This document shows, one piece after another, positions 10,478 through 42,651 of a stretch of 64,000 nt of DNA. A model generated the notes under the pieces. The model made no database searches. It had not been told where the DNA came from and saw only the letters and a list, made by a program, of their open reading frames with translations. The number at the start of each line of letters is the position of its first letter. Positions within the stretch are counted from its first letter, which is position 1. Origin of the DNA: a virus (taxonomy: Duplodnaviria; Caudoviricetes); IMG/VR virus record IMGVR_UViG_2926493430_000001, positions 3,023 through 67,022 of that record; one strand, given 5' to 3'. A program made the position numbers and the translations under genes.

Positions 10478-10504
10478 ATCACTCTAACGGTGTTATAAAG
10501 CAAG
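10478..10504 (-). promoter_or_regulatory. Conserved promoter-like motif (ATCACTC-N14-AGCAAG on +) upstream of the satellite integrase
   Basis: Same motif and spacing at 16317, 17269, 24487, 41380 and 42625. Confidence 0.7.
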
Positions 10505-10536
10505 TATATAAACACCAAAATGTGCGGTTATTTTCT

Positions 10537-11124
10537 CTAGTCTTCACGCAGTGAAATACCTCGTTTTTCTAGTTCCTTCTTAATGATTTCCTGTACATAG
10601 GCGTTCAAATCCCATGCCCAATAGCCTTCAACATTTAGACCGGGCATCATTTTTTCCTTCTCGTCTGATGACATCTGGGCGAGCTTTTTCAACTTCTCCA
10701 TTTTGTAAGATAAGTCTTCCAGAAAGCGATAAAAGTCCACATCTGATAAAAGCTCATCCAACAACGGTACAACTTCTGAACAAGATCCGAATTTGTCTGT
10801 ATCATGTGCTCTCTTAATAAGGTTGACCGCTACCTCTGATAAACCAAGGACTTTATGCACCTCTTTATTCTCAGAACTAACCCCTGTCAGTAGATAGTCC
10901 ACAGACACATCAAAATATTTCGCAATCTTATAAAGGTTTTCTGCAGTAGGCTGAGTGGAGCCATCCATATACAAACTAACGGTCTGTGGTCGGATACCAA
11001 TGGCTTTGGCCAGTGCCTTTTGTGTTGTTTTCTCCCCGGTGTGAGGATGTTCTTCCATCATGTTTCGTAAAGTTAAGGCAAAAATATTATCGAACCCTTT
11101 GAATTGATTTCCCACTAAGATCAC
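10537..11124 (-). CDS. XRE-family HTH repressor (Stl-like) of the satellite
   Basis: TQKALAKAIGIRPQTVSLY...KIAKYFDVSVDYLL; divergent from the replication genes. Confidence 0.85.
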   Translation of the reverse strand: MILVGNQFKGFDNIFALTLRNMMEEHPHTGEKTTQKALAKAIGIRPQTVSLYMDGSTQPTAENLYKIAKYFDVSVDYLLTGVSSENKEVHKVLGLSEVAVNLIKRAHDTDKFGSCSEVVPLLDELLSDVDFYRFLEDLSYKMEKLKKLAQMSSDEKEKMMPGLNVEGYWAWDLNAYVQEIIKKELEKRGISLRED

Positions 11125-11276
11125 CTCTATTTTTCTGTTTCACTTGAACTTTAATATTCTAGTTCTCTTATGCTTGTTATTTTGTTTTATCTGAATTACC
11201 ATAAGAATATCAGATGAAACGCAATACTTCAAGCGAAAGTAAAGCGAAACAGAATTTATAGAAGGAGGTATGTTTC

Positions 11277-11477
11277 ATGGATAAAAACACACTTGAGGCC
11301 GCTGCGAGGGAAGAACGATTGAAATACTTTCGAGAGTGGCGCCGCAATAACGCTGATAAGGTGAAGAAACACAACCAGAATTACTGGCTGAAAAAGGCAG
11401 AGAAAAAACTCAAGGAGGAGAAAGCCCGTGTCGGAAAACAAGAAACCAACCATGCTGACCGTAAGGGAAACCGCTAA
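11277..11477 (+). CDS. Small basic protein (satellite regulator candidate)
   Basis: GAAGGAGG RBS; 66 aa, helical and basic; first gene of the rightward operon. Confidence 0.7.
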   Translation: MDKNTLEAAAREERLKYFREWRRNNADKVKKHNQNYWLKKAEKKLKEEKARVGKQETNHADRKGNR

Positions 11478-11658
11478 AACAGGCATCCTCCCTGAACACG
11501 CCTTAAGGCTTCTGCTGAAAGCAGGCAAGCTTCCCGCTATCTTCGTGGGCAAGAAGGCATACATCAATTATGAAAAGTTATGCGAACAACTTAGCCAACT
11601 TGATGGCTCAGAAAAACCGGAAGGAGATGATATTTATGGATATCAAAATCGAATGTAA
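11428..11658 (+). CDS. Excisionase-like winged-HTH protein
   Basis: MLTVRETAK...LRLLLKAGKLPAIFVGKKAYIN, typical Xis/MerR-like pattern; AAGGAGG before GTG. Confidence 0.8.
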   Translation: MSENKKPTMLTVRETAKTGILPEHALRLLLKAGKLPAIFVGKKAYINYEKLCEQLSQLDGSEKPEGDDIYGYQNRM

Positions 11659-11791
11659 GAACTGCGATCATGTTGCCACAGTTGATGTAAATGGATTGAT
11701 TAAATCCATGCATGACAGCATCGACAACGATTCCATCTATGCAGGGTTTCTTTGCAAAAAATGTGCTGATGAACTTTTTGATGAAGACTAA
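11636..11791 (+). CDS. Small zinc-finger protein
   Basis: AAGGAG RBS; CKNC...CKKC. Confidence 0.55.
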   Translation: MDIKIECKNCDHVATVDVNGLIKSMHDSIDNDSIYAGFLCKKCADELFDED

Positions 11792-11811
11792 ACAGAAAGG
11801 GGGCGGCGGCC

Positions 11812-14073
11812 ATGGAAGAATTAAAACAACAGAAGATTTGGGTATGTTGGCGTTATGAAATGCAAAAGGGCCGCCGTACCAAAGTCTTATACAACACCAA
11901 AGGCTACAAAACCGGTACCAGTAAGAAATATAAATCCCAGTGGACAACCTTCGAGGAAGCCACAGAAGCCATGAAAGCTCATGCATTTGATGGTATTGGT
12001 CTTGTTCTACCCCATGGCATCGGGGGCATTGATTTGGATCATGTGGATGTAGACAGTGAGTTGGCTCAAGAAGTCAGAGCACTGATGAACACCTATGAGG
12101 AGGTTTCCCCTAGCGGTAAGGGCATTCACCATCTATTCAAGGTGGATGTAGAAAAGATTCCTTCATCAAATGGAAAATTGTCCAGCGAATATTACTCCAA
12201 GAACCCACACAACCAGATGGAAATCTACATCGGCGGACTGACCAATCGCTACCTTACTTTTACCGGTAATGCGATAAGTAATCATCCTGTAATGGATAGA
12301 ACCAATGAAGTGATTAACTTCTTGAACGGATACATGAAAAAAGATAGTTTCATAGACTCTGAGATTGAAAGTGCTTTTGTTAATGATGACTTTGATATCA
12401 TCGTTACCGCTAGAAAAGCTAAGAATGGCGATAAATTTATGGCCCTCTTTGACAAAGGTGACATCACCGAATATGGCAGCCCTTCAGAAGCCGACCAAGC
12501 ACTTTGTAATATCCTAGCCTTCTACACCGGCGGGGATATGGAACAGATGGACAGCCTCTTTAGACAATCGAAGCTATATCGGGAGAAGTGGGAGCGTGAT
12601 GATTACCGCACATCTACCATAGAAAAAGCCATCGAAGGTTGTCATGGCAAATTCTATACAGGCAGTAAGGACAGGCTCTCCTACATCTATTACGATGAGC
12701 GTTCCAAACGCATGAGGGTTAACTGTCCCTTGCTGGCAAGTTACATCCGGGAGAACCTTCATTACATCTTCGTTCGTGATAGTGCTAAAGGCGGCGTTTT
12801 ACGATATGTCTACGAAGATGGATGTTATCGACTTTATGCGGATGAAATGCTAAAAGGCATCATCAAAAGTTACATCACTGCCTTTGATGAAAATATCCTG
12901 CAGATGCGAGATGTCAATGAAGTTTTTGGACAAATTACCACAGATTTGGCCTTTACCACCAACGAGGAGCTGAATGCCGATGAGGATATCATTAACTTTC
13001 AAAATGGAATCTTGCGGGTATCTAATATGACTCTCATGCCCCATAGTCCGGATATCAAAAGCACCATTCAGATTCCTTGTAATTGGCTGGGGGTACCTAA
13101 ACCCACACCGGTCTTTAATAAGTTCATGCATACACTGACCAATGGAGACAAGGCAGTAGAAAACCTGTTGCTAGAGTTTATTGGAGTCTGCTTATCCAAT
13201 GTAAAAGGTTGGCGAATGAAAAAATCCCTATTCATGGTCGGCAAAGGAGATACCGGGAAGTCACAGCTAAAGAGTCTGACAGAAAGTCTTCTTGGTAAAG
13301 GCAACTATATCGGCATTGACTTAAAGGAAATAGAGTCCAGATTTGGGACAGGCAACATTTACAACAAGCGTTTAGCCGGTAGCTCCGATATGAGTTTCAT
13401 GTCTATTTATGAACTCAAAACCTTTAAGAAATGCACCGGTGGTGACAGCCTGTTCGCAGAATTCAAAGGACAAAACGGATTTGAATTTACCTACAACGGA
13501 CTTTTATGGTTCTGTATGAACCGGCTGCCCAAGTTTGGTGGAGACGATGGTGAATGGGTCTATAACCGGATTATGCAAGTGGATTGTAATAATGTCATTC
13601 CACGGGATAAGCAAGACAAACAGCTATTGGATAAACTCTACGCTGAACGGGATGGCATTGTCTACAAAGCCATTCTTGCACTAAAACAAGTGATCGCCAA
13701 TGGATATTCCTTCTCAGAACCACAGTGTGTAACAAATGCAAGAGTCGCTTATATGAAAGAAAACAATACAGTGATCTCCTTCTTTAAAGAGTGTATGGAA
13801 GAAAGACCGCTTGGAAAAATCCGGGATAGCTGCACAACGGGTAAAGTCTATGATGTGTACAAAGCTTGGTGCTTGGATAACAATCATGGCTATTCTAAGA
13901 CAGCTAAAGAGTTTCGCACAGAACTGGCCAATTATCTAGAAACCACATTCTCGGAAATGACCGTAAGGCGTGGCAAAGGTGGCACTTTTTATCAAAGATA
14001 CACCTTAACGGATGAAGCTAAGAATCAGTACCAAAGAGCCTATGGCTACGATGAGTTGCCTCTTCTCTCATGA
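11812..14073 (+). CDS. Primase-polymerase / SF3 (D5-like) helicase fusion
   Basis: IDLDH and EVSPSGKGIH primpol motifs; SEADQALC helical bundle; Walker A GKGDTGKS. Confidence 0.9.
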   Translation: MEELKQQKIWVCWRYEMQKGRRTKVLYNTKGYKTGTSKKYKSQWTTFEEATEAMKAHAFDGIGLVLPHGIGGIDLDHVDVDSELAQEVRALMNTYEEVSPSGKGIHHLFKVDVEKIPSSNGKLSSEYYSKNPHNQMEIYIGGLTNRYLTFTGNAISNHPVMDRTNEVINFLNGYMKKDSFIDSEIESAFVNDDFDIIVTARKAKNGDKFMALFDKGDITEYGSPSEADQALCNILAFYTGGDMEQMDSLFRQSKLYREKWERDDYRTSTIEKAIEGCHGKFYTGSKDRLSYIYYDERSKRMRVNCPLLASYIRENLHYIFVRDSAKGGVLRYVYEDGCYRLYADEMLKGIIKSYITAFDENILQMRDVNEVFGQITTDLAFTTNEELNADEDIINFQNGILRVSNMTLMPHSPDIKSTIQIPCNWLGVPKPTPVFNKFMHTLTNGDKAVENLLLEFIGVCLSNVKGWRMKKSLFMVGKGDTGKSQLKSLTESLLGKGNYIGIDLKEIESRFGTGNIYNKRLAGSSDMSFMSIYELKTFKKCTGGDSLFAEFKGQNGFEFTYNGLLWFCMNRLPKFGGDDGEWVYNRIMQVDCNNVIPRDKQDKQLLDKLYAERDGIVYKAILALKQVIANGYSFSEPQCVTNARVAYMKENNTVISFFKECMEERPLGKIRDSCTTGKVYDVYKAWCLDNNHGYSKTAKEFRTELANYLETTFSEMTVRRGKGGTFYQRYTLTDEAKNQYQRAYGYDELPLLS

Positions 14074-14077
14074 AATT

Positions 14078-14366
14078 AGTGACAGTAGTGACAGTTAGGT
14101 GACAGTAAAAAAACTAACTGTCACCTCGATAAACCCACAGCTACCAAGGGTTTGAATAGGTTTAGTGACAGTAGTGACAGCTTTTCTAACTTCTAAGCCG
14201 ACAAAACAAAATAGATAGATATAAAAGATAAATATATAAGTGTGAAGATGAACTTCAAATTACTGTCACTACTGTCACCAAAAGCTCTGAAACCCATGGT
14301 GTATAAGGCTTTAATGTGGTGACAATAAGCGAAAACAACTGTCACCGTACTGTCACTACTGTCACC
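14078..14366. repeat. Satellite replication origin: (A/G)GTGACAG iterons in both orientations around an AT-rich core
   Basis: About a dozen GTGACA/TGTCAC copies immediately after the primase-helicase gene. Confidence 0.85.
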
Positions 14367-14393
14367 AAATTTTTAGTATCGGAGGTGAAGACC

Positions 14394-14636
14394 ATGGAAG
14401 AAGTCGATAAACTACCAAAACGTCTACGGAAAAATCTAGACTTAGAAAATTTTGAAGTGTTTCACGTCATCCCACTTGGCGACTCGCATCCCGTTGTGGT
14501 GATGAGAGATAAACGATCAGATGCTAAAGCCCACTGGTGCATCCAATACCAAGGCTCCGGCTATTATTTTCAAACACTGAATGAAGTCATTTATTATTGC
14601 ATCTCCCGTAACTGGGTTAAAAATCATAAAAATTAG
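14394..14636 (+). CDS. Hypothetical protein (80 aa)
   Basis: GGAGGTG RBS before ATG 14394; the longer ORF-track start lies inside the iterons. Confidence 0.7.
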   Translation: MEEVDKLPKRLRKNLDLENFEVFHVIPLGDSHPVVVMRDKRSDAKAHWCIQYQGSGYYFQTLNEVIYYCISRNWVKNHKN

Positions 14637-14648
14637 GAGGAAAACACA

Positions 14649-15554
14649 ATGACAATTCAAACTACTTATAACAAAGCATTCTGGAACACAATGAGAGGTC
14701 AAGAAGCCTATCCGACTGTAAGGGACATGGCTGATAGCACTGGGAGCTATCCTGCCCCAGATGAATTCATCGACAGCTACACAACTGCTCTTGAAAAGGA
14801 AAATCTATTTAGAAGAATCGCCACTGTGGTTAAGACCACATCTACAGAAGGGAAGATTCATGCGGTTACTTCTACCGGTACGGCTGCTTGGGTTGGTGAA
14901 AACATTGCTATCCCAGAAAGCGCCGATACCGTTACACAATTCGCATTAGAATCTTATAAACTAGCAAGTTTGACAAGGTTGAAGCAATCCTTTGTCAGCG
15001 ACAACAAGTTTGATTTAGAGAACTATTTGAAAAATGAATTTGCCCGTAGGTTTGGTAGAGAGGAAGAAAACGCCTTTATTTATGGGGATGGCATGGATGC
15101 CCCTACTGGCATTTTGCACACCACAGAAGGGGCACCAGTCGGCGTAACTGCGGCAGGAAGCGATGCCATCACCTATGATGAAGTGATCAAGTTGTACTTC
15201 TCACTTGATAAGCATTACCGTAAAAATGGGGTATGGGTTATGAATGATGAAACAGCTCTTTTCCTACGAACGCTGAAAGACACAAACGGAAACTACTTGT
15301 GGAATCATGCAGATAACACCATTCTAGGAAAACCGGTCGTCTATTCACCTTATATGCCGGGCATCGAAAGCGGAGAGAAAGCCATTGCCTTCGGTGACTT
15401 CAGCTACTATTGGATTATTGAGCGCCAGCCACTTGCGGTGAAGGCTTTAAACGAGAAGTACATTCTAGAAGGTCAGATTGGCTTTGCAGCATTTGAGCGA
15501 CTAGATGCCAAGCTGATTATCCCAGAATCTATCAAACTACTTCAATTAGCATAA
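14649..15554 (+). CDS. HK97-fold major capsid protein paralog lacking the N-terminal scaffold region (Ccm-like)
   Basis: Aligns along its length with 35879-37072 from about residue 94 onward (APDEF, EFARR, GDG..PTGI, IAFGDF.YYW). Confidence 0.92.
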   Translation: MTIQTTYNKAFWNTMRGQEAYPTVRDMADSTGSYPAPDEFIDSYTTALEKENLFRRIATVVKTTSTEGKIHAVTSTGTAAWVGENIAIPESADTVTQFALESYKLASLTRLKQSFVSDNKFDLENYLKNEFARRFGREEENAFIYGDGMDAPTGILHTTEGAPVGVTAAGSDAITYDEVIKLYFSLDKHYRKNGVWVMNDETALFLRTLKDTNGNYLWNHADNTILGKPVVYSPYMPGIESGEKAIAFGDFSYYWIIERQPLAVKALNEKYILEGQIGFAAFERLDAKLIIPESIKLLQLA

Positions 15555-15561
15555 TTGAAAT

Positions 15562-15610
15562 AGCGGGTAGGAGAAGACGTTAATGTCCACACTCCTACCC
15601 GCTTCTTTTT
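15562..15610. terminator. Intrinsic terminator hairpin between convergent genes
   Basis: AGCGGGTAGGAG...CTCCTACCCGCT followed by a T-run. Confidence 0.8.
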
Positions 15611-16280
15611 AGTTTTCATCCTTTTTAGGTCTCCCGTGTTTAAAGGCCGCATTGCCGGTTAAGTTGCGAAGCAAGAACTTTCGAAGTGCCTTGTACTCAT
15701 CCCCGATAAACCCTAGCCTTAAAAGAAAACATCTGAAGTCGTATTTCTCATTCTCGCTTTTCCTCGGTGTGGATGCAACTCTGTTTCGCTCAATTGCCAT
15801 TTTGCATAAGGCTTCGATAAAATGTGTGTAATGGTTCACCTCATCACTGTTCTCTGTTTTGGGGAACCATGGAAGCTTTACTTTCACATCGTTTTCGATG
15901 ATTCTCAAATCCATGGTGCCGATGGCCTTGCTGATGAGTTCTCCTTTGGCGTTTACAATCTTGTGCAAATTTTCGATGGCCTTCTCTGTAAACATGTCCC
16001 TTGGCATGGCTACTTCGATGCCGTCAAAGGCATTTCCACCGTAATTTGTGGGCATGAAACCTTGTTCTTCGAGCACCGTGACCATTTTGTCCACTTCCGC
16101 CGGGGTCATGCTGTCATTTAGTATAACCGCTCCCTCCCGGTCAACCACCAAGTCTCCTATTTCATAAGCACATGTTGGGACACCTTTATATTTGGGTATG
16201 GTGTTTAAGAACTCACTAATTGCCTGTACCAGTTCCTTTCTCCGTTGCCCTTTGACTTCATAAGTGATTTTGAATTCCAT
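15609..16280 (-). CDS. Phage protein of unknown function, homolog of prophage 41840-42589
   Basis: Shared RKELV...Y.GVPT..YEI and NEKYDFRCFLLRLG/NPKYALRTWLIRLG...L.G..AF motifs. Confidence 0.85.
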   Translation of the reverse strand: MEFKITYEVKGQRRKELVQAISEFLNTIPKYKGVPTCAYEIGDLVVDREGAVILNDSMTPAEVDKMVTVLEEQGFMPTNYGGNAFDGIEVAMPRDMFTEKAIENLHKIVNAKGELISKAIGTMDLRIIENDVKVKLPWFPKTENSDEVNHYTHFIEALCKMAIERNRVASTPRKSENEKYDFRCFLLRLGFIGDEYKALRKFLLRNLTGNAAFKHGRPKKDEN

Positions 16281-16316
16281 TCCTTATCATCCTTTCGTTT
16301 TTTGGTTACACCATAT

Positions 16317-16343
16317 ATCACTCTGAAGCCACAGAATAGCAAG
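16317..16343 (-). promoter_or_regulatory. Conserved promoter-like motif copy
   Basis: ATCACTC-N14-AGCAAG upstream of 15609-16280. Confidence 0.7.
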
Positions 16344-16388
16344 TCATTTGTGTACGAAAAAAGAGACCATCAAAAGATGATCCCTGCT

Positions 16389-16796
16389 TCAGCTAATGCT
16401 ATTCCTCATTTCGTTTACAATCTTTTGAAACCCTGTTAAATTTCCTTTTCCCAAAGTGGAATAGTAGTCTATGTGTTTTTGCGCTGCGTTTAAAGCAACT
16501 TCAAGTGAATCCCGGCCATAATCTTGCATTATACTTTCGAGCAAGAATTTGTTTGTGGCATTATTAAAAGCTCTTTTATATTCTTCACCATTCATCATAG
16601 CAAGAAATATCGTGATAAAAGCCTGTGCAGAACCTTCACTCATGCCTGTAGCTCTGTTAATTTCAATTTTCCCTTCATTTCTTGTTAGTTGTTCCGAATA
16701 TACTTTTTTGGCTATTTCATAAGCGCCTTTACTCATCTCCATAGTAATCTTCAAAACTACCACCTCACCTATATTCTTATAGTTATAACATAACAC
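16389..16796 (-). CDS. Hypothetical helical protein (true start probably ~16754)
   Basis: 135-aa ORF; GAGGTGG before LKITMEM; resembles N-terminal regions of some HNH restriction proteins (weak). Confidence 0.6.
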   Translation of the reverse strand: MLCYNYKNIGEVVVLKITMEMSKGAYEIAKKVYSEQLTRNEGKIEINRATGMSEGSAQAFITIFLAMMNGEEYKRAFNNATNKFLLESIMQDYGRDSLEVALNAAQKHIDYYSTLGKGNLTGFQKIVNEMRNSIS

Positions 16797-16923
16797 AAAA
16801 AATGGTAGCTGAGTTTTAGCAAATTTATCGGTAAAACACTTTCTGTTAATATCTTTTGATTAAGTGTGGTTGCAATGTGATCATTGAAATAAACCAATCC
16901 AAGACCCGCTATCTCAATGACTT

Positions 16924-17235
16924 TTATTCTTCTATGGCAGTGTACCGTGGGTATTCATATCCTTCTGTGTTTACTAAAACCCGCTCACCAGTTTCCACAT
17001 TCTTAACTCGGATGCAGCGAAGTTCACCTGATGCATTGCTACCGCCATCAGTTCTTTCTATCCAAGGTTGTTCATTAAAAAAGTCGCTGCAAAATTTCTT
17101 AAACTCGTGATCACTTAATTCTACCTCTCGGGTGACTGTGTAGTCTGAACCTCTTACGCCTCTTTTCTTCGCATTCTCCGTAGCTTCTCTCAATTCCTTG
17201 ATATCAGTAAACTTTCGACCAAATAATGCCTTCAT
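16924..17235 (-). CDS. Phage protein of unknown function, homolog of prophage 42715-43029
   Basis: MKALFGRK...DFFNEQPWI...TGERVLVN.EGY.YPRYTAIE shared by both; GGAGG RBS. Confidence 0.88.
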   Translation of the reverse strand: MKALFGRKFTDIKELREATENAKKRGVRGSDYTVTREVELSDHEFKKFCSDFFNEQPWIERTDGGSNASGELRCIRVKNVETGERVLVNTEGYEYPRYTAIEE

Positions 17236-17268
17236 TGAAACACCTCCTGCATTTTCACTATTACATAC

Positions 17269-17295
17269 ATCACTCAATTTTGCGAAAACATCAAG
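17269..17295 (-). promoter_or_regulatory. Conserved promoter-like motif copy
   Basis: ATCACTC-N14-ATCAAG upstream of 16924-17235. Confidence 0.65.
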
Positions 17296-17464
17296 TCGAT
17301 TACCTCATTTTATGGGCCAAAAATGGCATTAAATCAAGGTTTTAACAGGTAATTTAATAGCAAAAACATATACTATCAGACGAAACAAAAATAGCCACAT
17401 AACCCGCAAACCCTTTAATATCAAGGTTTACAAGGCTATGTGGCTCTATTTTGGCACTTTCAGG

Positions 17465-17550
17465 GTACCCCCCCTATCGAATTATGCGATTTTTCGCGTG
17501 TGGTTGGGGCGCGGTCGCCATATTGATAGTTGTAGAGATTTGACCGCCCC
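17465..17550. other. Satellite cos-like packaging site, homologous to prophage 45234-45320
   Basis: Colinear blocks CCCCCCT, GCGCGGTCGCC, GTTGTAGAGATTT and CCCC. Confidence 0.8.
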
Positions 17551-18006
17551 TTCGGAGTTCTTCGCCATCAAAGCCACCAATCCTCCCATGTAATCACACC
17601 CGTGTAAATAATATTAATTTTTAATGCATAGTATATTTGTACTATGAAGCAACAGTACCTTTAATAAATAACAGCTATAAATTCAACTAAACTCCGTTTG
17701 TTTAATATGAACCAGATTTTCTTATCCATTACTTTCGGTGTCAGGTTCAGGTTCTGCGCAAGCACAATCATCACCACAGAAACAACCCGAAAGAGAGAGT
17801 GTGGATACTAATGTCAAAGAAAAAATATATTTTTTTATCTAAGAAAACCTTCTTATTTAACAATTTATTTCTAAACTCATTTGCCACTTTATTAAGTACA
17901 TCATTTCACATTTCCACCATAATCACGCCATTTTACCGTAGAAAGTCAACCGTGAACATAAGAAATATGAAAATATTCAATCGAATAAAATACCGATTAT
18001 TTTTTA

Positions 18007-19113
18007 TTAAAATTTTGCAAATATTAATTTTGCATCATCTGAAGAAGAACCATGGTCAGTATTATCGTAAGAAATTGAAATAACCTCACCTTCTTTTAAG
18101 CTGACAACTACATCATCATTAGTAGCAGTATACATTTGATCTCTGCTCTCACCATTTTCATCGTTATATATTGTAATGCTCCATCCTAAATTATCAAATT
18201 CAGGATTTAATTTAACATTAGTTGAAAGTTTATAATCTCCAGGCATGATATCTCTTCCAACTATAAACTCACCTATACCTAACTCATTAGAAGGTTCAAC
18301 CTTTTCAGGTACTGCATTAAATTTGACTTTAGAAATATCGCTAAATTCAAGAGTATCACCTTCAAAAAGTATCATTCGTATTTTTGAAGGATATCCTCCA
18401 GTATTTCCTTTTGCTCCTCCAACCCAATTTATGAATAACGAAGAAACAGAAGAACGGTCACCTAATATATTTCCAGAACCTCCTGTGATTTCTAAATCAT
18501 AAATACCAGGTGTAACTTCTTCATTTTCGCCAATTACTATATCACCTGTAACATAAAGCTCTTCTGTTTGGGTAGAAAGTGTTGCAAGTTGATTCAAAAT
18601 ATCTAGAGGTGCATACTTCTCTTCGGATTTATCCTCTGTGGTGTTTTCAACTTTTTGTACTTTGTTTTGAGTATCTTCTGTAGATCCACTTGGCTCTTTT
18701 TGGAGTTTAACCTTTGTAGTCGTCCCCATAACGGAAACCTCATAACTTAATACTTCATTTTGGTATGTCATAGTTTTAGTATCATCCGAAGATGCAAGCA
18801 TAGCACTATCAGTTTTGCTATGGTCATTTTTTGAATCCCATGTAAAAGGTTCGTCAGCAGTTGTCGGAGCGATAAAAGAGCCAGCCCAATAAAGTGATTT
18901 TGTGTCGCCGTTATCACTTACCCAGTATATTTCAATCATATCGCCACTTATTGTAGCGGCTTGATAAGAGTCTTCAGATTTACTATTTGATTGTTTCCAT
19001 TCTCCAATTAAGTCTGGCATTTGCTTTTCAGTGGTTTTGAGTGTGGAGCTACACCCAGTAAATAGCGTTATGAGTAGAGTCAGACAAAAGGTAATAATTG
19101 TTAGTTTTTTCAT
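18007..19113 (-). CDS. Lipoprotein
   Basis: MKKLTII...LFTGC lipobox; two-domain mature part with a low-complexity linker. Confidence 0.8.
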   Translation of the reverse strand: MKKLTIITFCLTLLITLFTGCSSTLKTTEKQMPDLIGEWKQSNSKSEDSYQAATISGDMIEIYWVSDNGDTKSLYWAGSFIAPTTADEPFTWDSKNDHSKTDSAMLASSDDTKTMTYQNEVLSYEVSVMGTTTKVKLQKEPSGSTEDTQNKVQKVENTTEDKSEEKYAPLDILNQLATLSTQTEELYVTGDIVIGENEEVTPGIYDLEITGGSGNILGDRSSVSSLFINWVGGAKGNTGGYPSKIRMILFEGDTLEFSDISKVKFNAVPEKVEPSNELGIGEFIVGRDIMPGDYKLSTNVKLNPEFDNLGWSITIYNDENGESRDQMYTATNDDVVVSLKEGEVISISYDNTDHGSSSDDAKLIFAKF

Positions 19114-19263
19114 TTTGCTATCCTCCTAATCTTCATTAATCCAAGTTTACCAAAAGTTTGTTGCTATCTATGTTTGAATTTATTGTCCATGACAGTTCTA
19201 AACTTGAATTTCCAAATTAGTATAATTATTTTATCTTGATAAATTGTATTAACCATTTTTTAT

Positions 19264-29711: not shown

Positions 29712-29723
29712 TCTGCCCTCCTT

Positions 29724-32324: not shown

Positions 32325-32391
32325 GACTCCACCTCCTCTCTTTTTGGGCATAAAAAAAAGAAACCCTAAATTATAATGGGTTCCATTAGTA

Positions 32392-32586: not shown

Positions 32587-32693
32587 TTTTTGATAACAGT
32601 ATAACTCTAGAAGGAAACTTACCTCAACAGGTATTGCATCTTTAATTTGCTTTCATGCTTTAATGGCTTTTGATTTGAGCATGAATGCAAAAG

Positions 32694-33307: not shown

Positions 33308-33327
33308 TTTTCATCATCCTTTCCAGC

Positions 33328-34985: not shown

Positions 34986-34989
34986 CCCA

Positions 34990-35636: not shown

Positions 35637-35646
35637 CGCTTACCTC

Positions 35647-35868: not shown

Positions 35869-35878
35869 TAAGCCTCAC

Positions 35879-37072: not shown

Positions 37073-37088
37073 ATTGTTTGTCTCCTCC

Positions 37089-37775: not shown

Positions 37776-37778
37776 GGT

Positions 37779-39002: not shown

Positions 39003-39018
39003 AGTTTCACTTCCTAAA

Positions 39019-40563
39019 TTAGAGAATCAATATCCCTCGCCCATCATAAACACTCTCTCGATTTTCATTCCGAATCGCCCGGTCCAATGCCATAATCATT
39101 GCCACCGCACCGTCAATTCGTTCTGTACTTTTCTCTTTATCCGGCTTAATGTTGCCCGCCGGGTCTGTTTTCACAAAGATGTTATCCATCATCCATCGTA
39201 AAACCGGATTTCCACCGTGAACGATTCGTTTCTCAAGGGTAATTTTCATCAACTCTTTTGATGCTGGCGACATATCCTTATACCCTTGTCCAAATGGAAC
39301 GACCGTGAAGCCCATCCCTTCTAGGTTTTGTACCATTTGAACTGCTCCCCATCGGTCAAAGGCAATTTCCTTAATGTTGTATTTCATTCCCAGTTCCTCA
39401 ATAAATGCCTCAATGAATCCATAATGAATAACGTTCCCCTCAGTTGTTTTGATGTAACCTTGCTTTTCCCAAATGTCATAGGGCACATGATCTCTCCTTA
39501 CCCGCAATTTCAGGTTTTCGTCGGGAATCCAGAAATAAGGGAGAACAATGAATTTCTCGTCATCTGTCCTAGGTGGAAAAACCAACACAAAGGCGGAAAT
39601 ATCTGTTGTACTTGAAAGGTCAAGCCCTGCAAAACATTCTCTTCCACGAAGACTATCAAGATCAATAGGATCGTCACAAGCATCCCACTTCTCCATCTGC
39701 ATCCAGCGAGTGGATTGCTTCACCCATTGATTGAGCCTCAGTTGCCTGAAGATGTTTTCTTCGGCGGGATTTTCTTTTGCACTAATAAACGCATTTCTTA
39801 CTTTCTCTATGTCAATGGTATGGCCAAGGGATGGATTGGCTTTATACCAGTTCTTTTCAGCAGTCCAATCATCATTATCATCAATTCCATAAATTACTGG
39901 ATAAAAAGTCGGGTCAATCTTTCTTCCTTCTAAAATATCCATCGCTTTTTGATGCACTTCATAACAAATCGAATTTCGGTCAGTACCCGCTGTCGTAATC
40001 AAAAAGAAGAGCGGCTGGAGGCGAGCATCTCCAGAGCCTTTCGTCATAACGTCATATAGCTCTCGATTCGGTTGCGCATGCAGTTCGTCAAAAATAACCG
40101 CATGAACATTGAGTCCATGTTTCGTATAAGCTTCAGCTGATAGTACTTGATAAAAACTATTCGTTGGCTTGTAAACCAATCGCTTCATGGACATGACAGG
40201 CTTGATTCTTTTCTTCAGCGCAGGGGACTGTTCGACCATCTCTACTGCTACATCGAAAACAATCGAGGCTTGCTGCCGGTCAGAAGCACATCCATAAACT
40301 TCCGCTCCCCATTCACCATCACCACAGGTCATTAATAGGGCAACGGCTGCAGCGAGCTCACTTTTCCCATTCTTCTTTGGAATTTCAATATAAGCGGTGT
40401 TGTATTGCCGATAGCCATTATCCTTGACAGTACCAAAAATATCTCGGATGATTTCATCTTGCCAGGGGAGAAGATCGAAAGGAACACCACGCCACTGACC
40501 TTTCGTATGCTTTAGACAGTTGATAAAGTTGACGGCGTGTTGAGCTTTTTTCTCATCATACAA
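39019..40563 (-). CDS. Terminase large subunit
   Basis: PKKNGKS Walker A, IFDELH Walker B, GLDLS nuclease motif, RIDGAVA. Confidence 0.95.
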   Translation of the reverse strand: MYDEKKAQHAVNFINCLKHTKGQWRGVPFDLLPWQDEIIRDIFGTVKDNGYRQYNTAYIEIPKKNGKSELAAAVALLMTCGDGEWGAEVYGCASDRQQASIVFDVAVEMVEQSPALKKRIKPVMSMKRLVYKPTNSFYQVLSAEAYTKHGLNVHAVIFDELHAQPNRELYDVMTKGSGDARLQPLFFLITTAGTDRNSICYEVHQKAMDILEGRKIDPTFYPVIYGIDDNDDWTAEKNWYKANPSLGHTIDIEKVRNAFISAKENPAEENIFRQLRLNQWVKQSTRWMQMEKWDACDDPIDLDSLRGRECFAGLDLSSTTDISAFVLVFPPRTDDEKFIVLPYFWIPDENLKLRVRRDHVPYDIWEKQGYIKTTEGNVIHYGFIEAFIEELGMKYNIKEIAFDRWGAVQMVQNLEGMGFTVVPFGQGYKDMSPASKELMKITLEKRIVHGGNPVLRWMMDNIFVKTDPAGNIKPDKEKSTERIDGAVAMIMALDRAIRNENRESVYDGRGILIL

Positions 40564-40565
40564 CC

Positions 40566-41060
40566 TTACCCACCACCTTTAAAGAGCATGAATTCCATTG
40601 GATCATCCGGGTCACTCGGCTTGTCCGCAACAATTCGACTTCTCGAAGATGGGGTCAACCCGAATTGCTCACAAAAGCGATTCATGATTTTAAGATAGCT
40701 CTGGGCGATGGATACTTGTGGCACCTGTTGCCAGTATCCCGATGGAGTTTTGACAATCGTTCCATGTTTCGTAATGAATTCTTCAGCTTCTTTCCACCTA
40801 GCATAGGCTTGGCAATACCCGGCAAATGCGGCCATATCCACTTCCGTCAGGATCCCTAGCTTCTCCAGCTGCTTGACCATCCTGCGCCATTCTTTTTTGG
40901 CTTCCGGCTCTAGCCATGACGGGCATCTTGGTGCTTTGTTTTCAGGTTTGGGCTCATTTAGATTGAGTTCCCTTTTTCCAGGATTGCCTTCCAATACTTT
41001 AATTGCTGTAGGTTTTGGTTTCCTTCCTCGTTGGGCCACAGGCACCACCTCCTTTCTCAT
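40566..41060 (-). CDS. Terminase small subunit (P27 family)
   Basis: GRKPKPT...GNPGKR, FGLTPSSR. Confidence 0.92.
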   Translation of the reverse strand: MRKEVVPVAQRGRKPKPTAIKVLEGNPGKRELNLNEPKPENKAPRCPSWLEPEAKKEWRRMVKQLEKLGILTEVDMAAFAGYCQAYARWKEAEEFITKHGTIVKTPSGYWQQVPQVSIAQSYLKIMNRFCEQFGLTPSSRSRIVADKPSDPDDPMEFMLFKGGG

Positions 41061-41129
41061 TGGGCATAAGAAAAGAGCCTACCGCTTGATAGACTCTCAT
41101 TAAACGTTTATTTAAATCATTTAAATCAT

Positions 41130-41345
41130 TTAAATCTTCCATATCTCCATCTTGAATTCCCCTTCAAAAACCATCCAGCGTACTTCGCCATCTTCAAGTT
41201 TCAATACTAACATTCCCGGCAAAAAGTACATTTCGTTTTCCTTGTATCCAGCTGCCAATAATTCTTGTTGCTGCTGAAGTAATAGTTCCATACCTTGTAG
41301 CACATCCACATTTCCCTGAAGGAGTTGCTCCCCATCTTTCACCAA
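41130..41345 (-). CDS. Hypothetical protein (~71 aa)
   Basis: AGGGAGG RBS before TTG/GTG near 41345; the ORF-track start falls inside the promoter motif. Confidence 0.55.
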   Translation of the reverse strand: MVKDGEQLLQGNVDVLQGMELLLQQQQELLAAGYKENEMYFLPGMLVLKLEDGEVRWMVFEGEFKMEIWKI

Positions 41346-41379
41346 TGAAAAAACCTCCCTGTGTTTTGGTAGTCTATAC

Positions 41380-41406
41380 ATCACTCTAAACACAGGGGAT
41401 AGCAAG
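41380..41406 (-). promoter_or_regulatory. Conserved promoter-like motif copy
   Basis: ATCACTC-N14-AGCAAG. Confidence 0.7.
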
Positions 41407-41408
41407 TA

Positions 41409-41618
41409 CTATTTGCCTTCAATGCCTATATAATTGTAATTGCCCTTCTTAATCTCCTCATGTTCCGCTTTGACTGCCTCGCGATAATCAGAACGCTTCG
41501 ATTCTTTGTCCTTGCAACTCAAGCAAAGGCAATCGGTGTTGTACATGGACATGATCCTTCCGCTTTTTAAACTGCCACCGCAGCGGTCACAATGTGTTTG
41601 TGTAAAGAACTTATCCAT
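41409..41618 (-). CDS. Small zinc-binding phage protein
   Basis: CDRCG...CLCLSC. Confidence 0.75.
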   Translation of the reverse strand: MDKFFTQTHCDRCGGSLKSGRIMSMYNTDCLCLSCKDKESKRSDYREAVKAEHEEIKKGNYNYIGIEGK

Positions 41619-41856
41619 CGCGCCTCACCTCACTGTACCTCTTCCTTGTGGCTTCAATAAATGCATGGAGGTCGCCGGCCTGCGGATTCAAGTCCTCTTC
41701 ACTGTTCCAGAACTGGTCCAATTCTTCCAGCAAGTCGAGCAATTCAAGTACATCATTCTTGGCTTCTACTTCCCCGAACACCACTTCTTTTTCAATTATC
41801 GTAGCCTTCAGACCCTGGATCATCGCTTGGTAGATTTCTTTATTCATTTGTCTCAC
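41611..41856 (-). CDS. Hypothetical protein
   Basis: Overlapping, coupled ORF in the same operon. Confidence 0.6.
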   Translation of the reverse strand: MRQMNKEIYQAMIQGLKATIIEKEVVFGEVEAKNDVLELLDLLEELDQFWNSEEDLNPQAGDLHAFIEATRKRYSEVRRDG

Positions 41857-42589
41857 TCACCTTTCTAAATGCCCCGCTCCCTTCAAGGTTTTTCATGAGC
41901 ACCTTTCTCGTTCTTTTGTACTCAGGGCCATTCATCCCTAGTCGAATCAACCAAGTTCTCAAGGCGTATTTTGGATTATCATCCTGCGCTCGTTTGAAAG
42001 AAGCCCGCTTTTGCTTTTTCGCATTTTGGTTGATGAAGGCGGCAAGGTCTTGGAAGGCAGAAACCTTTTCAGCATCCAAGTTCCCAGCTGCTAGTTTGAT
42101 AGTAAAAGTCTCATTTTCAAAATCAAATGCTAAACCCGATATTCTTTCCTTTCCAAGTTCATCCAAAGCCGTTCTGAACTCTTCCAAAGTACCCGTTTCC
42201 TTTGTGTTCAAATCTTCCGGGAAGGTTTCATCCATTAGCGGCTCGGTTGTTTCAAAAGCCTTCATGATCAGGTGCTGTTTGCTATAAAGCATGTTTACTA
42301 GATTCTTGAGTGTGTTTCCGGTGTGCCCTTCAAGTGGAAGGGTAACCTCCCTTCCATCGAGGTCAAGGATTTCTGGCTGTTCTTCAACTTCATCCTCAGG
42401 CGCTGGCGGATTTAAAATCTCCTCAAAGGTCTTTACTTCCCCAGCTGAGTTTGTAATCACCCCATGCCTGTCAATGGTGTAGGTTTCATCTTCCGTTTCA
42501 ATTTCGTAGTTAAAGGTTGGAACATTGAGATACCTTGGTTTCACTCCAAAAAATTCTCCAAGCTTTTTGACCATTTCTTTTCGGTCCAT
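41840..42589 (-). CDS. Phage protein of unknown function (homolog in the satellite at 15609-16280)
   Basis: GGAGG RBS; similarity to the satellite copy. Confidence 0.85.
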   Translation of the reverse strand: MDRKEMVKKLGEFFGVKPRYLNVPTFNYEIETEDETYTIDRHGVITNSAGEVKTFEEILNPPAPEDEVEEQPEILDLDGREVTLPLEGHTGNTLKNLVNMLYSKQHLIMKAFETTEPLMDETFPEDLNTKETGTLEEFRTALDELGKERISGLAFDFENETFTIKLAAGNLDAEKVSAFQDLAAFINQNAKKQKRASFKRAQDDNPKYALRTWLIRLGMNGPEYKRTRKVLMKNLEGSGAFRKVSETNE

Positions 42590-42624
42590 TCACATTACCT
42601 CCTGTGTTTTGGTGTAGTACATAT

Positions 42625-42651
42625 ATCACTCTAAACACAGGGAATAGCAAG
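42625..42651 (-). promoter_or_regulatory. Conserved promoter-like motif copy
   Basis: ATCACTC-N14-AGCAAG; near-identical to 41380-41406. Confidence 0.7.

What the first reader, a model, noticed from the sequence alone, without database searches (positions are those of the whole stretch)
10478..42651. One non-canonical promoter-like motif shared by the satellite integrase, helper recombinase operon and cos-proximal genes
Seen: ATCACTC-N14-A(G/T)CAAG (minus strand CTTGCT-N14-GAGTGAT) occurs with exact spacing at 10478, 16317, 17269, 24487, 41380 and 42625, always upstream of a minus-strand gene; a degenerate copy lies near 43270-43296. It does not fit a standard sigma-A -35/-10 spacing well. 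Inference: a common regulon (phage activator or alternative sigma factor) that would synchronise satellite excision with transcription of the very operon it interrupts. Candidate regulators are 44546-44983 and 45878-46309.
Basis: partly seen in the sequence, partly recalled or inferred. Interest (0 to 1): 0.8.

Follow-up and report, generated by a model that had tools for sequence, protein, structure and literature searches.

The report
Phage late promoter copied by satellite
A short promoter-like signal that a widespread group of Gram-positive prophages places before their packaging and integrase genes also occurs three times in a small parasitic element lodged inside this prophage, so the parasite probably switches on together with its helper virus's late genes.

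Summary
CTTG(C/A)T-N14-GAGTGAT (minus strand) occurs 6 times in the window, and 0 of 100 shuffles had any match. All six copies lie 36-137 nt upstream of minus-strand genes.

The consensus is CTTGCTAT-N8-tTTaGAGTGATaTATrkAC..ACC.AAA. It follows the gene of a DUF1492/LtrB-type late activator in 38 of 55 related prophage loci. It is also present in Erysipelothrix, Streptococcus and Gardnerella phages and in at least 115 IMG/VR contigs.

Among 269 genomes of the host family, 18 carry the extended motif and 16 carry LtrB. Fifteen carry both.

It is not a sigma-A consensus promoter. The gene at 45878-46309 encodes a coiled-coil hairpin plus a sigma-region-4 domain, with no sigma-2 domain. The other candidate, 44546-44992, is dispensable.

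The "satellite" is a 14.3-kb helper-embedded element (8014-22320). It splits the helper's second serine-recombinase gene, downstream of the motif copy at 24487. Relatives of the satellite keep the motif before their integrase gene.

Best reading: Ltr-dependent late promoters that the satellite has co-opted. Transcription starts and regulator dependence were not tested.

The parts
42625..42651 (-). Late promoter-like motif, copy 1 of the helper (before p249)
   Evidence: Exact match. A terminator-like hairpin lies just upstream at 42717-42688. The same position is occupied in related loci.
41380..41406 (-). Late promoter-like motif, copy 2 of the helper (before p91-terS-terL)
   Evidence: Exact match. 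The same position before p91/terS is occupied in L025-L031, L041-L043, L047 and L053.
24487..24513 (-). Motif copy heading the helper's serine-recombinase operon
   Evidence: Exact match. It follows the endolysin gene and a terminator-like hairpin at 24570-24543. The same arrangement, amidase then motif then two recombinases, is found in G018, G115 and G257.
17269..17295 (-). Satellite motif copy before p117 (DUF6329, 61% identical to helper p122)
   Evidence: Kept in satellite relatives L101 and L103.
16317..16343 (-). Satellite motif copy before p223 (paralogue of helper p249)
   Evidence: Terminator-like hairpin at 16385-16362 just upstream. Kept in L101, L103 and L104.
10478..10504 (-). 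Satellite motif copy before the tyrosine integrase
   Evidence: Kept directly before int in L101, L102 and L104.
6681..6707 (-). Weak one-mismatch copy before a 1226-aa double serine-recombinase ORF
   Evidence: (PWM score 15.1 against 38.7-55.7 for the eight training sites). Function doubtful.
43270..43296 (-). Degenerate copy before p79 (box 1 kept, box 2 diverged)
45878..46309 (-). LtrB-type late transcriptional activator (DUF1492; coiled-coil hairpin plus sigma-region-4-like HTH), the proposed reader of the motif
   Evidence: Pfam DUF1492 2.7e-10, Sigma70_r4 1.1e-4. phrog_36 5.6e-27. AF2 pLDDT 86.9. Residues 85-140 match SigL region 4 at Z 9.6, rmsd 1.3 A over 55 residues. Co-occurrence with the motif.
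44546..44992 (-).
   Evidence: Relatives in 9 of 76 loci only, none in the C7 prophage.
22743..24350 (-). Helper large serine recombinase A (535 aa)
   Evidence: Resolvase, Recombinase and Zn_ribbon_recom domains.
22321..22727 (-). N-terminal part of helper serine recombinase B, cut by the insertion
   Evidence: Resolvase profile positions 1-108 only. Aligned to an intact relative.
6757..8013 (-). C-terminal part of helper serine recombinase B
   Evidence: The shared octamer TTCGAGAA is in codon phase 0 on both sides.
8014..22320 (-). Helper-embedded satellite with cargo (14.3 kb)
   Evidence: Bounded by the two diverged copies of a ~43-bp target segment. Homology to satellite relative L101 ends at 8010. 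Contents.
9064..10431 (-). Satellite tyrosine integrase
   Evidence: Phage_integrase 3.9e-29.
10537..11124 (-). Satellite cI/Xre-type repressor candidate
   Evidence: HTH_3 6.1e-13. PHROG repressor families.
11812..14073 (+). Satellite primase/D5-type helicase
   Evidence: NrS1-1_pol-like_HBD, DUF5906, D5_N and Pox_D5 domains.
14649..15554 (+). Satellite HK97-type capsid protein
   Evidence: Phage_capsid 6.1e-75.
17440..17570 (-). Satellite block similar to the helper's HNH-proximal non-coding region (candidate cos site)
   Evidence: blastn 72.7% over 77 nt. Three-way alignment with L101. The same GGGG..TCAAATCTC block follows HNH in L057 and L088.
45210..45340 (-). Helper block downstream of HNH (candidate cos site)
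41840..42589 (-). p249, first gene behind late promoter copy 1 (phrog_2443, annotated 'virulence-related protein' in phage records)
39019..41060 (-). terS and terL
   Evidence: Terminase_4, TerL_ATPase and TerL_nuclease.

Best explanation
The motif is the late promoter of a large group of temperate phages of Gram-positive bacteria. These phages share the gene order VapE primase, VRR-NUC, SNF2 helicase, Ltr, HNH, ParB-methylase, then packaging genes.

The promoter has two fixed boxes. Box 1 is CTTGCTAT. Box 2 is GAGTGAT(A/G)TAT, and the two start 20 bp apart. Conserved bases run on to an ACC-RAAA stretch about 15 nt further, where transcription probably starts.

Host sigma-A RNA polymerase alone should read it poorly. 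The proposed reader is the phage's own late activator, LtrB (45878-46309), made from the early/middle operon. Its sigma-region-4-like domain probably binds box 1 and brings in or re-tools RNA polymerase.

In this prophage the promoter fires at three places: 42625 (p249), 41380 (p91, terS, terL and on to lysis), and after a terminator at 24487 (the serine-recombinase genes).

A 14.3-kb satellite sits inside the second recombinase gene. It carries three more copies, before its integrase and before two genes it shares with the helper. Its integrase and these genes would therefore come on only when the helper reaches its late stage. Recombination at the shared octamer TTCGAGAA would then rejoin the helper gene in frame.

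Shown: the sequence, the positions, the conservation, the co-occurrence with Ltr, the domain make-up and the insertion geometry. Inferred: that it is a promoter, that LtrB reads it, the timing, and what reads box 2.
For: 1. Non-random and directional. Six copies in the window against 0 in 100 shuffles. In 76 loci that encode an LtrB relative there are 69 exact sites in 577.5 kb downstream on the gene's strand, against 2 in 1726 kb elsewhere.

2. Promoter-like placement. The copies lie 36-51 nt before start codons with Shine-Dalgarno sequences at five of six window sites. Terminator-like hairpins lie immediately upstream of three of them: 42717-42688, 24570-24543 and 16385-16362.

3. Bases I did not select for are conserved in 57 unique sites: A7 56/57, T18 54/57, A30 56/57, T31 57/57, A34 53/57, A43 57/57.

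4. Specific to phages with an Ltr.
- In the own genome, extended copies occur only in the two prophages that each encode an LtrB.
- In 269 family genomes the extended motif is in 18 and the reversed control in 2. LtrB at E<=1e-30 is in 16. Fifteen have both.
- Of the exceptions, G090 and G253 carry a 152-aa protein in the same SNF2-HNH slot. It hits the same PHROGs as LtrB (phrog_248 1.4e-13, phrog_36 5e-11).
- G133 holds a satellite remnant, and G091 holds a prophage stump that has lost its late genes.

5. Host-independent. The same motif occurs in phages of Erysipelothrix (2 sites), Streptococcus (2) and Gardnerella (3), and in at least 115 IMG/VR stretches.

6. LtrB has a sigma-4-like DNA-binding domain. 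Residues R99, Y100 and H124 in its HTH are invariant in 36 of 36 relatives.

7. Published passages (read with 'find' in PMC3753634) state that a DUF1492 (LtrB) protein of an S. suis prophage controlled expression from its terS promoter in a reporter.

8. Recombinases belong to the regulon elsewhere too. The order amidase, motif, two serine recombinases occurs in three other genomes. In 80 IMG/VR loci, 6 of 118 sites precede a serine recombinase.

9. Satellite relatives keep the motif before int (L101, L102, L104), p223 (L101, L103, L104) and p117 (L101, L103).
Against: 1. No transcription start was seen. The only RNA data are contigs, and one of them runs across the 42625 site.

2. 17 of 55 LtrB loci with at least 5 kb downstream lack an exact core. 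Several have variants: GAGCCAT in L048 and L055, other forms in L033, L088 and L094. L057, L074, L077, L092, L095 and L099 show nothing recognisable.

3. The Ltr recognition helix varies a lot while box 1 stays constant. Box-2 variants do not track any Ltr change I could see. A protein as far from LtrB as the 152-aa one goes with the same motif (hhalign probability 4%). Part of the motif, above all box 2, may therefore be read by something else.

4. LtrB has no sigma-2 domain, so it cannot by itself explain a conserved -10-like box.

5. Characterised Ltr systems use one promoter with upstream sites. RinA needs sequence more than 155 bp upstream (passages of PMC3152322). Phi13 Ltr has four direct repeats (abstract of PMC13123087). 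This compact two-box layout is not what those cases would predict.

6. Co-occurrence among related genomes is not independent evidence.
Confidence: 0.7

Rival explanations
1. It is a promoter, but its specific reader is not LtrB alone. Either another conserved phage protein supplies -10 recognition as a split or minimal sigma, or LtrB replaces sigma-A region 4 while an unknown partner or core RNA polymerase reads GAGTGATATAT.
For: Box 2 is as conserved as box 1, yet LtrB has only a sigma-4-like domain. Box-2 variants occur with box 1 unchanged. A very distant Ltr goes with the same motif. The fixed two-box spacing resembles recognition by a sigma factor.
Against: No second sigma-like protein was found among the window genes I scanned. 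HTH148 is present in only 9 of 76 loci. Gardnerella phage AB1 annotates a sigma-24-like ORF early in its genome, but the window has no counterpart.
Confidence: 0.15
2. It is an ordinary host-polymerase promoter that needs no phage factor: a strong, unusual, extended -10-type sigma-A promoter conserved by descent.
For: Box 1 contains TTGCTA (4 of 6 matches to TTGACA). Box 2 contains TG-A-TATATR, which resembles an extended -10. Both readings are from the consensus.
Against: The spacer would be 19-21 bp and the base at -7 is never T in the consensus. The sigma-70 scan calls none of the six sites. No extended copy lies in host chromosomal DNA outside prophages or satellites in the own genome. An unregulated promoter before lysis, packaging and recombinase genes in a prophage would be harmful.
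Confidence: 0.05
3. It is an RNA element, such as a leader structure, processing site or antitermination site, rather than a promoter.
For: In a subset of sites the spacer is complementary to the Shine-Dalgarno region downstream, with different sequences in different phages. At least 8 nt pair in 26 of 223 unique sites, against 9 of 223 when spacers are paired with another site's downstream region. The two helper sites at 41380 and 42625 show this.
Against: RNAalifold finds no consensus pair in 60 diverse sites. Rfam has no match in the window. Terminator-like hairpins lie right upstream of three sites, leaving no room for another promoter. The complementarity fits better as an add-on that silences read-through transcripts.
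Confidence: 0.04
4. It is a DNA site for something other than transcription, for example a binding site of the ParB-methylase, a recombination site or a packaging site.
For: A ParB_N-methylase gene precedes the first copy in most loci. The copies lie near recombinase, integrase and terminase genes.
Against: The copies have a strict orientation and a fixed short distance to start codons of unrelated genes: p249 family, amidoligase, DUF6329, terS, recombinases. The satellite's attachment core (TTCGAGAA) and its candidate cos block lie elsewhere.
Confidence: 0.04

Closest known systems
LtrB (DUF1492) family of the Ltr superfamily of late activators of Gram-positive phages (Quiles-Puchalt et al. 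2013, PMC3753634; passages read)
   Same: The regulator is a small phage protein with DUF1492 and sigma-70 region-4 similarity. It is encoded upstream of the packaging genes, and the target promoter precedes terS and the late operon.
   Different: That paper gives no consensus site (the word 'consensus' occurs 0 times) and describes a single late promoter. Here there are 2-4 copies per phage of a compact two-box element, which also heads the recombinase operon. Dependence on LtrB is not shown for this phage.
RinA of staphylococcal phages phi11 and 80alpha (PMC3152322; passages read)
   Same: A phage late activator that is needed for packaging of both phage and satellite.
   Different: RinA needs sequences more than 155 bp upstream of the start. 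The paper reports that it does not control int and does not control SaPI operon I. Here the satellite itself carries the helper's late promoter, including before its int.
Alt of lactococcal phage TP901-1 and Ltr of phi13 (as cited in PMC3152322; abstract of PMC13123087)
   Same: Activator-dependent late promoter upstream of terS.
   Different: Those use arrays of direct repeats upstream (-76 to -32 for Alt; four repeats for phi13 Ltr). They do not use a -35/-10-like pair with fixed spacing.
P2 Ogr / P4 delta trans-activation of satellite late promoters (recalled, not read here)
   Same: The satellite and the helper share one late-promoter type, so one activator turns on both.
   Different: Different proteins (zinc-finger activators), a different site (an upstream inverted repeat) and Gram-negative hosts. 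P4 is not embedded in P2.
Helper-embedded PICIs (Tommasini, Mageeney and Williams 2023, PMC10111431; abstract and discussion read)
   Same: The satellite is integrated inside a gene of its helper prophage, in the direction of late transcription. It has its own tyrosine integrase, primase and capsid gene. Excision is expected to restore the interrupted gene.
   Different: Those are Gram-negative elements in lambda-like head genes, and they are proposed to be driven by read-through. This one is in a Bacillaceae prophage and targets a serine-recombinase gene. It has its own copies of the helper's late promoter, and its junctions carry a diverged copy of the target segment.

Membership tests
Ltr-dependent late promoter (Ltr superfamily, family III LtrB/DUF1492) | The phage encodes a DUF1492 / sigma-70 r4-like small protein upstream of the packaging module. 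| tested here: met
   45878-46309: DUF1492 2.7e-10 (above the cut-off), Sigma70_r4 1.1e-4; phrog_36 5.6e-27 and phrog_248 2.2e-9.
Ltr-dependent late promoter (Ltr superfamily, family III LtrB/DUF1492) | The target promoter lies upstream of terS and heads the morphogenesis and lysis operon. | tested here: met
   By position only. The motif at 41380 precedes p91-terS-terL, and the one at 42625 precedes p249. Equivalent positions are occupied in related loci.
Ltr-dependent late promoter (Ltr superfamily, family III LtrB/DUF1492) | Transcription from the promoter requires the activator. | not testable with these tools
   Only co-occurrence is available: 15 genomes with both, 3 with the motif only, 1 with LtrB only, 250 with neither, of 269.
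Ltr-dependent late promoter (Ltr superfamily, family III LtrB/DUF1492) | The activator binds the promoter DNA. | not testable with these tools
Promoter of a complete alternative sigma factor (sigma-70 family) | The regulator has a sigma-2 domain (-10 recognition and core binding) as well as sigma-4. | tested here: inconclusive
   In the AF2 model, residues 1-87 form a two-helix coiled-coil hairpin that matches only generic coiled coils (Z 9-10). Residues 85-140 match sigma-4. Full-length ECF sigma alignments are poor (TM 0.34-0.40, rmsd above 12 A). No sigma-2 was seen, but a very divergent one cannot be excluded.
Promoter of a complete alternative sigma factor (sigma-70 family) | Two conserved boxes at fixed spacing just upstream of the start. 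| tested here: met
   The N14 spacing is invariant in all 69 sites. Both boxes are conserved.
Canonical sigma-A (sigma-70 type) promoter | TTGACA, 16-18 bp spacer, TATAAT, with A at -11 and T at -7. | tested here: not met
   The scan called 0 of the 6 sites. The consensus has no register with A at -11 and T at -7.
Phage satellite (PICI-like, helper-embedded) | A small integrative element with its own integrase, repressor and replication genes, lacking most virion and lysis genes. | tested here: met
   8014-22320 holds a tyrosine integrase, a cI-like HTH protein, a D5-type primase and a single capsid gene. It has no terminase, portal, tail or lysis genes.
Phage satellite (PICI-like, helper-embedded) | It is integrated within a gene of a prophage that could act as helper. 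| tested here: met
   It splits serine recombinase B. The halves are at 22321-22727 and 6757-8013, and the shared octamer is in the same codon phase on both sides. A recombinase C-terminal part starting near residue 140 lies beside int in L102, L103, L108 and L111, that is 4 of 11 int loci.
Phage satellite (PICI-like, helper-embedded) | It is packaged by the helper's machinery (shares its cos or pac site). | tested here: inconclusive
   A ~100-nt block at 17440-17570 resembles the helper's HNH-proximal region and is kept in L101. Function as cos is inferred only.
Phage satellite (PICI-like, helper-embedded) | It is induced and mobilised by the helper. | not testable with these tools
   This needs induction experiments.

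The most novel reading that the evidence does not exclude
The two-box element is read by RNA polymerase re-tooled by LtrB. In this reading LtrB is a sigma-4-only protein that takes the place of sigma-A region 4, and the polymerase accepts a non-canonical -10. This recognition mode would be shared by phages from Bacillota to Actinomycetota.

A new family of Gram-positive helper-embedded satellites has wired its own integrase to this signal. The satellite would then excise late, from replicated helper genomes. Its excision would rebuild the helper's second integrase gene, which would give the satellite control over whether progeny helper phages can lysogenise.
Probability: 0.25. Interest if true: 0.85.

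Novelty: new variant of a known kind. Interest (0 to 1): 0.62.

Why it matters
Late activators of Gram-positive phages have been known since 2011-2013, but the DUF1492 family has had no defined DNA target. Here there is a precise consensus of about 31 bases. It is conserved across phyla, can be searched in any genome, and marks the late regulon of a very common prophage type, including gut Clostridia phages and Streptococcus, Erysipelothrix and Gardnerella phages.

The consensus shows that these phages place their serine integrases in the late regulon. This bears on delayed excision and on the gene transfer that follows from it.

It also uncovers a Gram-positive counterpart of helper-embedded satellites. 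This one targets the helper's integrase gene and copies the helper's late promoter, so the P4/P2 logic is reached by different parts.

The element is compact enough for direct tests and could serve as a phage-gated expression switch.

Tried and rejected
- Public RNA. Only four RNA runs held 8-12% of the words, and they are kept as contigs. They give no 5' ends, and one contig bridges the 42625 site. No conclusion about transcription can be drawn.
- Complex prediction for an LtrB dimer. The idea that two LtrB copies bind the two similar boxes (TTGCTAT and GTGATAT, 21 bp apart) stays untested. It is weakened because box 2 varies while box 1 does not.
- Rfam scan of the window: 0 families.
- RNAalifold on 60 sites: 0 pairs.
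- Leader after 24487. A hairpin plus a T-run is visible by eye, but the fold z-score is -1.36 and the terminator scan does not list it. It is not significant.
- The repeat finder for attachment sites gave nothing useful. The junctions were found by aligning to an intact relative.
- Megablast of the window against annotated phages gave only short hits, with no close named relative.
- Literature string search for the motif found only unrelated primers and the like. The search for DUF1492 returned 3 papers, and the one I opened (PMC3753634) gives no site.
- The 13-base core alone is too short for genome-wide use. It matches 103 of 269 family genomes, mostly by chance, so the extended pattern was used.
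- HTH148 (44546-44992) was rejected as a general regulator.
- I compared Ltr helix-turn-helix sequences with box variants by eye and saw no covariation.
- The search of earlier findings returned nothing.

Full report
**Observation**

None of 100 dinucleotide-preserving shuffles gave any match. On the minus strand each copy reads CTTG(C/A)T-N14-GAGTGAT and lies before a minus-strand gene:

| Motif | Gene downstream |
|---|---|
| 10478 | tyrosine integrase |
| 16317 | p223 |
| 17269 | p117 |
| 24487 | a large serine recombinase |
| 41380 | p91, terS, terL |
| 42625 | p249 |

Five copies are 36-51 nt from a start codon with a Shine-Dalgarno sequence. The 24487 copy is 137 nt from its gene.

The tool's sigma-70 scan calls none of the six sites. 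Terminator-like hairpins lie immediately upstream of three of them: 42717-42688, 24570-24543 and 16385-16362.

**Gene context**

Reading the minus strand from high to low coordinates, the window holds a prophage:
- a cI/ImmA-type lysogeny module at 56077-57524 (+ strand);
- an early operon with a DUF2800 nuclease, a single-strand-binding protein, a family A polymerase, Bro/ANT, a VapE primase, VRR-NUC and an SNF2 helicase;
- a 143-aa DUF1492 protein (45878-46309), HNH, an HTH/zinc-ribbon protein (44546-44992), a ParB-methylase, p79 and p122;
- a terminator, then the motif (42625), p249 and two small genes;
- the motif again (41380), p91, terS, terL, portal, protease, capsid, tail genes, holin and amidase;
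- a terminator, then the motif (24487), serine recombinase A (22743-24350) and the first ~145 residues of a second recombinase (to 22321).

The rest of that second recombinase lies at 8013-6757.

Alignment to an intact relative (L115) shows that both junctions carry a diverged copy of the same ~43-bp stretch of the gene. They share the octamer TTCGAGAA in codon phase 0 on both sides. An element of 14.3 kb (8014-22320) is therefore inserted in recombinase B, and recombination at the octamer would rejoin the gene in frame.

A 12-base repeat lies about 40-55 bp inside each junction. These repeats may be integrase arm sites.

**The inserted element**

It carries the following:
- a tyrosine integrase (9064-10431);
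- a cI-like repressor (10537-11124);
- on the other strand, a D5-type primase (11812-14073) and an HK97-type capsid protein (14649-15554);
- p223, a paralogue of helper p249 (26% identity, same PHROG);
- p135;
- p117, which is 61% identical to helper p122 (DUF6329);
- a cargo block at 18007-21947 with an SPFH/SHOCT protein, a bacterial PH-domain protein and a DUF4839 protein.

It has no terminase, portal, tail or lysis genes.

A ~100-nt block at 17440-17570 resembles the helper's non-coding region just downstream of HNH (45210-45340). The block is conserved in a related element. The same GGGG..TCAAATCTC block follows HNH in distant relatives. It is a good candidate for the cos site, copied by the satellite.

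The closest described kind is the helper-embedded PICI of Gram-negative bacteria (PMC10111431, abstract and discussion read).

**The motif elsewhere in this genome**

The 13-base core occurs nine times in 4.34 Mb: the six window copies, two copies 1 kb apart in a second prophage on contig C7, and one on C14. The two C7 copies have the full extended consensus. The C14 copy lacks it and is probably chance.

The C7 prophage has its own LtrB relative (33% identity), HNH, terS, a p223-like gene, an amidoligase and terL.

A weight matrix built from the eight good sites finds nothing else in the genome above 15.1, while the eight training sites score 38.7-55.7. The 15.1 hit is a one-mismatch copy at 6681 before another serine recombinase. 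It has an identical twin at C2:2803.

**The motif in related phages**

A scan of one genome per species with the 143-aa protein returned 76 loci. They come from Bacillaceae, many Clostridia, Negativicutes, Sphaerochaeta and Acholeplasmataceae bins.
- 55 loci have at least 5 kb downstream of the gene. Of these, 38 have at least one exact core on the same strand, and 36 have the RTAT extension.
- In all, 69 sites lie in 577.5 kb of downstream same-strand sequence, against 2 in the other 1726 kb.
- The sites sit after the ParB-methylase and before p249/p223-family genes, DUF6329 genes, amidoligases, p91/terS or terL.

The 57 unique sites give the consensus a.aa...aCTTGcTAtt...tg..tTtaGAGTGATaTAT(r)(k)Ac....caAA. 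Many positions that I did not select for are nearly invariant.

Loci without an exact core fall into two groups:
- Variants: GAGCCATATATGTAC in L048 and L055; other box-2 forms in L088 and L094; both boxes slightly changed in L033; one-mismatch forms in L037, L059 and L061.
- Nothing recognisable: L057, L074, L077, L092, L095 and L099.

The motif is also present, exact, in Erysipelothrix phage phi1605 (2 sites) and Streptococcus phage Javan105 (2 sites). Gardnerella phage vB_Gva_AB1, whose host is an actinobacterium, has 2 exact sites and one with a mismatch.

In the 80 IMG/VR loci I examined there are 118 sites. The gene downstream is:
- p249/p223 family: 42 sites
- amidoligase: 19
- serine recombinase: 6
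- DUF6329: 5
- terS or terL: 4
- p69: 1
- no hit to my queries: 33
- contig end within 300 nt: 8

**Link to the regulator**

In 269 genomes of the host's family, the extended pattern is present in 18 and the reversed control in 2. The LtrB profile hits 24 genomes at E<=1e-5, of which 16 are at E<=1e-30. Fifteen genomes have both the motif and a strong LtrB hit.

The three motif-only genomes are explained as follows:
- G090 and G253 have the same phage module but carry a 152-aa protein in the SNF2-HNH slot. It is not detectably similar to LtrB by hhalign (probability 4%). It does hit the same two PHROG families (phrog_248 1.4e-13, phrog_36 5e-11).
- G133 holds only a satellite fragment.

The one LtrB-only genome, G091, holds a prophage stump without late genes. 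These genomes are kin, so the table overstates independence.

**What the regulator is**

Pfam gives DUF1492 above its cut-off, with weaker Sigma70_r4 and ECF hits. NCBIfam gives only sub-threshold sigma models. PHROGs call it a transcriptional regulator or activator.

The AlphaFold model (pLDDT 86.9, built on 36 sequences) has two long helices (3-38 and 51-84) followed by a three-helix HTH.
- The C-terminal part matches sigma region 4. VIA-align gives Z 9.6 and rmsd 1.3 A over 55 residues against SigL region 4. Foldseek gives TM 0.7-0.79 against several sigma-4 structures, though its E-values are only 0.1-0.5.
- The N-terminal part matches only generic coiled-coil hairpins.

It is therefore not a complete sigma factor.

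The first eight residues (MNAKEYLS) and R99, Y100 and H124 are invariant in 36 relatives that are as little as 23% identical overall. An invariant N-terminus suggests a conserved protein partner, such as RNA polymerase. This is inference.

Passages of PMC3753634 report that a DUF1492 (LtrB) protein from an S. suis prophage controlled its terS promoter in a reporter. The paper gives no consensus site.

**What remains unexplained**

- Box 2 is as conserved as box 1 but cannot be assigned to a sigma-4-like domain with any confidence.
- Box 2 varies in a few lineages while box 1 stays fixed, and I saw no matching change in Ltr.
- The likely start, judged from the conserved ACC-RAAA about 14-16 nt after GAGTGAT, would put box 1 near -40 to -33. 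That is further upstream than a normal -35.
- Known Ltr systems look different. RinA needs sequence more than 155 bp upstream and does not control int or SaPI operon I (passages of PMC3152322). Phi13 Ltr has four upstream repeats (abstract of PMC13123087).

**A side observation on silencing of read-through transcripts**

In a subset of sites, including 41380 and 42625, the spacer is complementary to the Shine-Dalgarno region downstream. Different phages use different sequences for this. At least 8 nt pair in 26 of 223 unique sites, against 9 of 223 for mismatched pairs. It is not general, since RNAalifold finds no consensus pair in 60 sites.

If the motif is a promoter, transcripts reading through from upstream would contain the spacer and could hide the ribosome site. 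Transcripts started at the motif could not. This logic is recalled from phage T4 lysozyme and was not read here.

**Satellite relatives**

The integrase finds 11 loci. Four are full or nearly full elements, with these features:

| Locus | Source | int identity | Motif before int | Motif before p223 | Motif before p117 |
|---|---|---|---|---|---|
| L101 | Bacillus massilionigeriensis | 97% | yes | yes | yes |
| L102 | Acetoanaerobium | – | yes (one mismatch) | – | – |
| L103 | Alkalibacterium | – | no | yes | yes |
| L104 | Haloplasmataceae bin | – | yes (one mismatch) | yes | – |

In L103, int follows p223 directly and has no motif of its own.

A serine-recombinase C-terminal part beginning near residue 140 lies beside int in L102, L103, L108 and L111, that is 4 of the 11 loci. 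L101 and L104 show none within 10 kb.

In three other genomes the helper-type phage has the order amidase, motif, two intact recombinases. The recombinase operon is thus a regular member of the regulon, and its second gene is the satellite's usual target.

**Verdict**

The best reading is a family of Ltr-dependent late promoters, shared by a very widespread phage group and copied by a Gram-positive helper-embedded satellite, including before its integrase.

The idea of a common regulon and the candidate 45878-46309 are supported by comparative evidence. 'Alternative sigma factor' is not supported, and 44546-44992 is not required. Timing and dependence on LtrB remain to be tested. Supplementary files of the papers were closed, so a site defined only there could have been missed.

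Noticed in passing
window 41380-41345 and 42625-42590; loci: The promoter spacer is complementary to the Shine-Dalgarno region downstream in a subset of sites, and the sequences differ between phages, so the changes are compensatory. At least 8 nt pair in 26 of 223 sites, against 9 of 223 in mismatched pairs. This may silence translation of read-through transcripts.
   Followed up: partly
window 17440-17570 and 45210-45340; L101:2480-2640: A ~100-nt block is shared by the satellite and the helper's region just downstream of HNH. The same GGGG..TCAAATCTC block follows HNH in distant relatives. It is a candidate cos site copied by the satellite.
   Followed up: partly
window 14076-14180 and 14261-14369: Two pairs of exact 19-22-nt repeats, about 86 nt apart, of opposite sense to each other. 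They lie between the satellite's primase and capsid genes and look like iterons, so this may be the satellite's replication origin.
   Followed up: no
window 3009-6689: One 1226-aa ORF holds two full sets of Resolvase, Recombinase and zinc-ribbon domains, that is two large serine recombinases fused or read through. It is preceded by a weak motif copy at 6681. An identical promoter region and further recombinases lie at C2:55-2803, just outside the window.
   Followed up: partly
window 22273-22284 and 8058-8069: A 12-base direct repeat lies about 40-55 bp inside each end of the inserted element. These may be arm-type integrase sites flanking the core in attP.
   Followed up: partly
window 27347-28105 (+): A RelA/SpoT-domain gene lies on the opposite strand, inside the tail/lysis region of the prophage. 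It may be a moron or a small alarmone-synthetase-type defence gene.
   Followed up: no
window 18007-21947: The satellite's cargo block holds a 368-aa protein of unknown function, an SPFH/Band-7 protein with a SHOCT tail, a bacterial PH-domain protein and a DUF4839 protein. The closest satellite relative, L101, lacks this block. It may be a defence or exclusion cargo.
   Followed up: no
window 58103-58831: An epimerase/dehydratase gene matches only profile positions 81-240 and lies next to the prophage's lysogeny end. The prophage may have integrated into this gene.
   Followed up: no
L112:10082-10540 and L118:11469-11927 (genomes G090, G253): A 152-aa protein replaces LtrB in the same gene slot, yet the phage keeps the identical promoter motif. 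It shares PHROG families with LtrB but has no detectable pairwise or profile similarity to it.
   Followed up: partly
window 24430-24480 (-): The leader of recombinase A has a hairpin followed by a T-run right after the motif. Relatives have a leader of only ~60 nt without it. The fold is not significant (z -1.36). The leader shares 13 bases with the satellite's right junction.
   Followed up: partly
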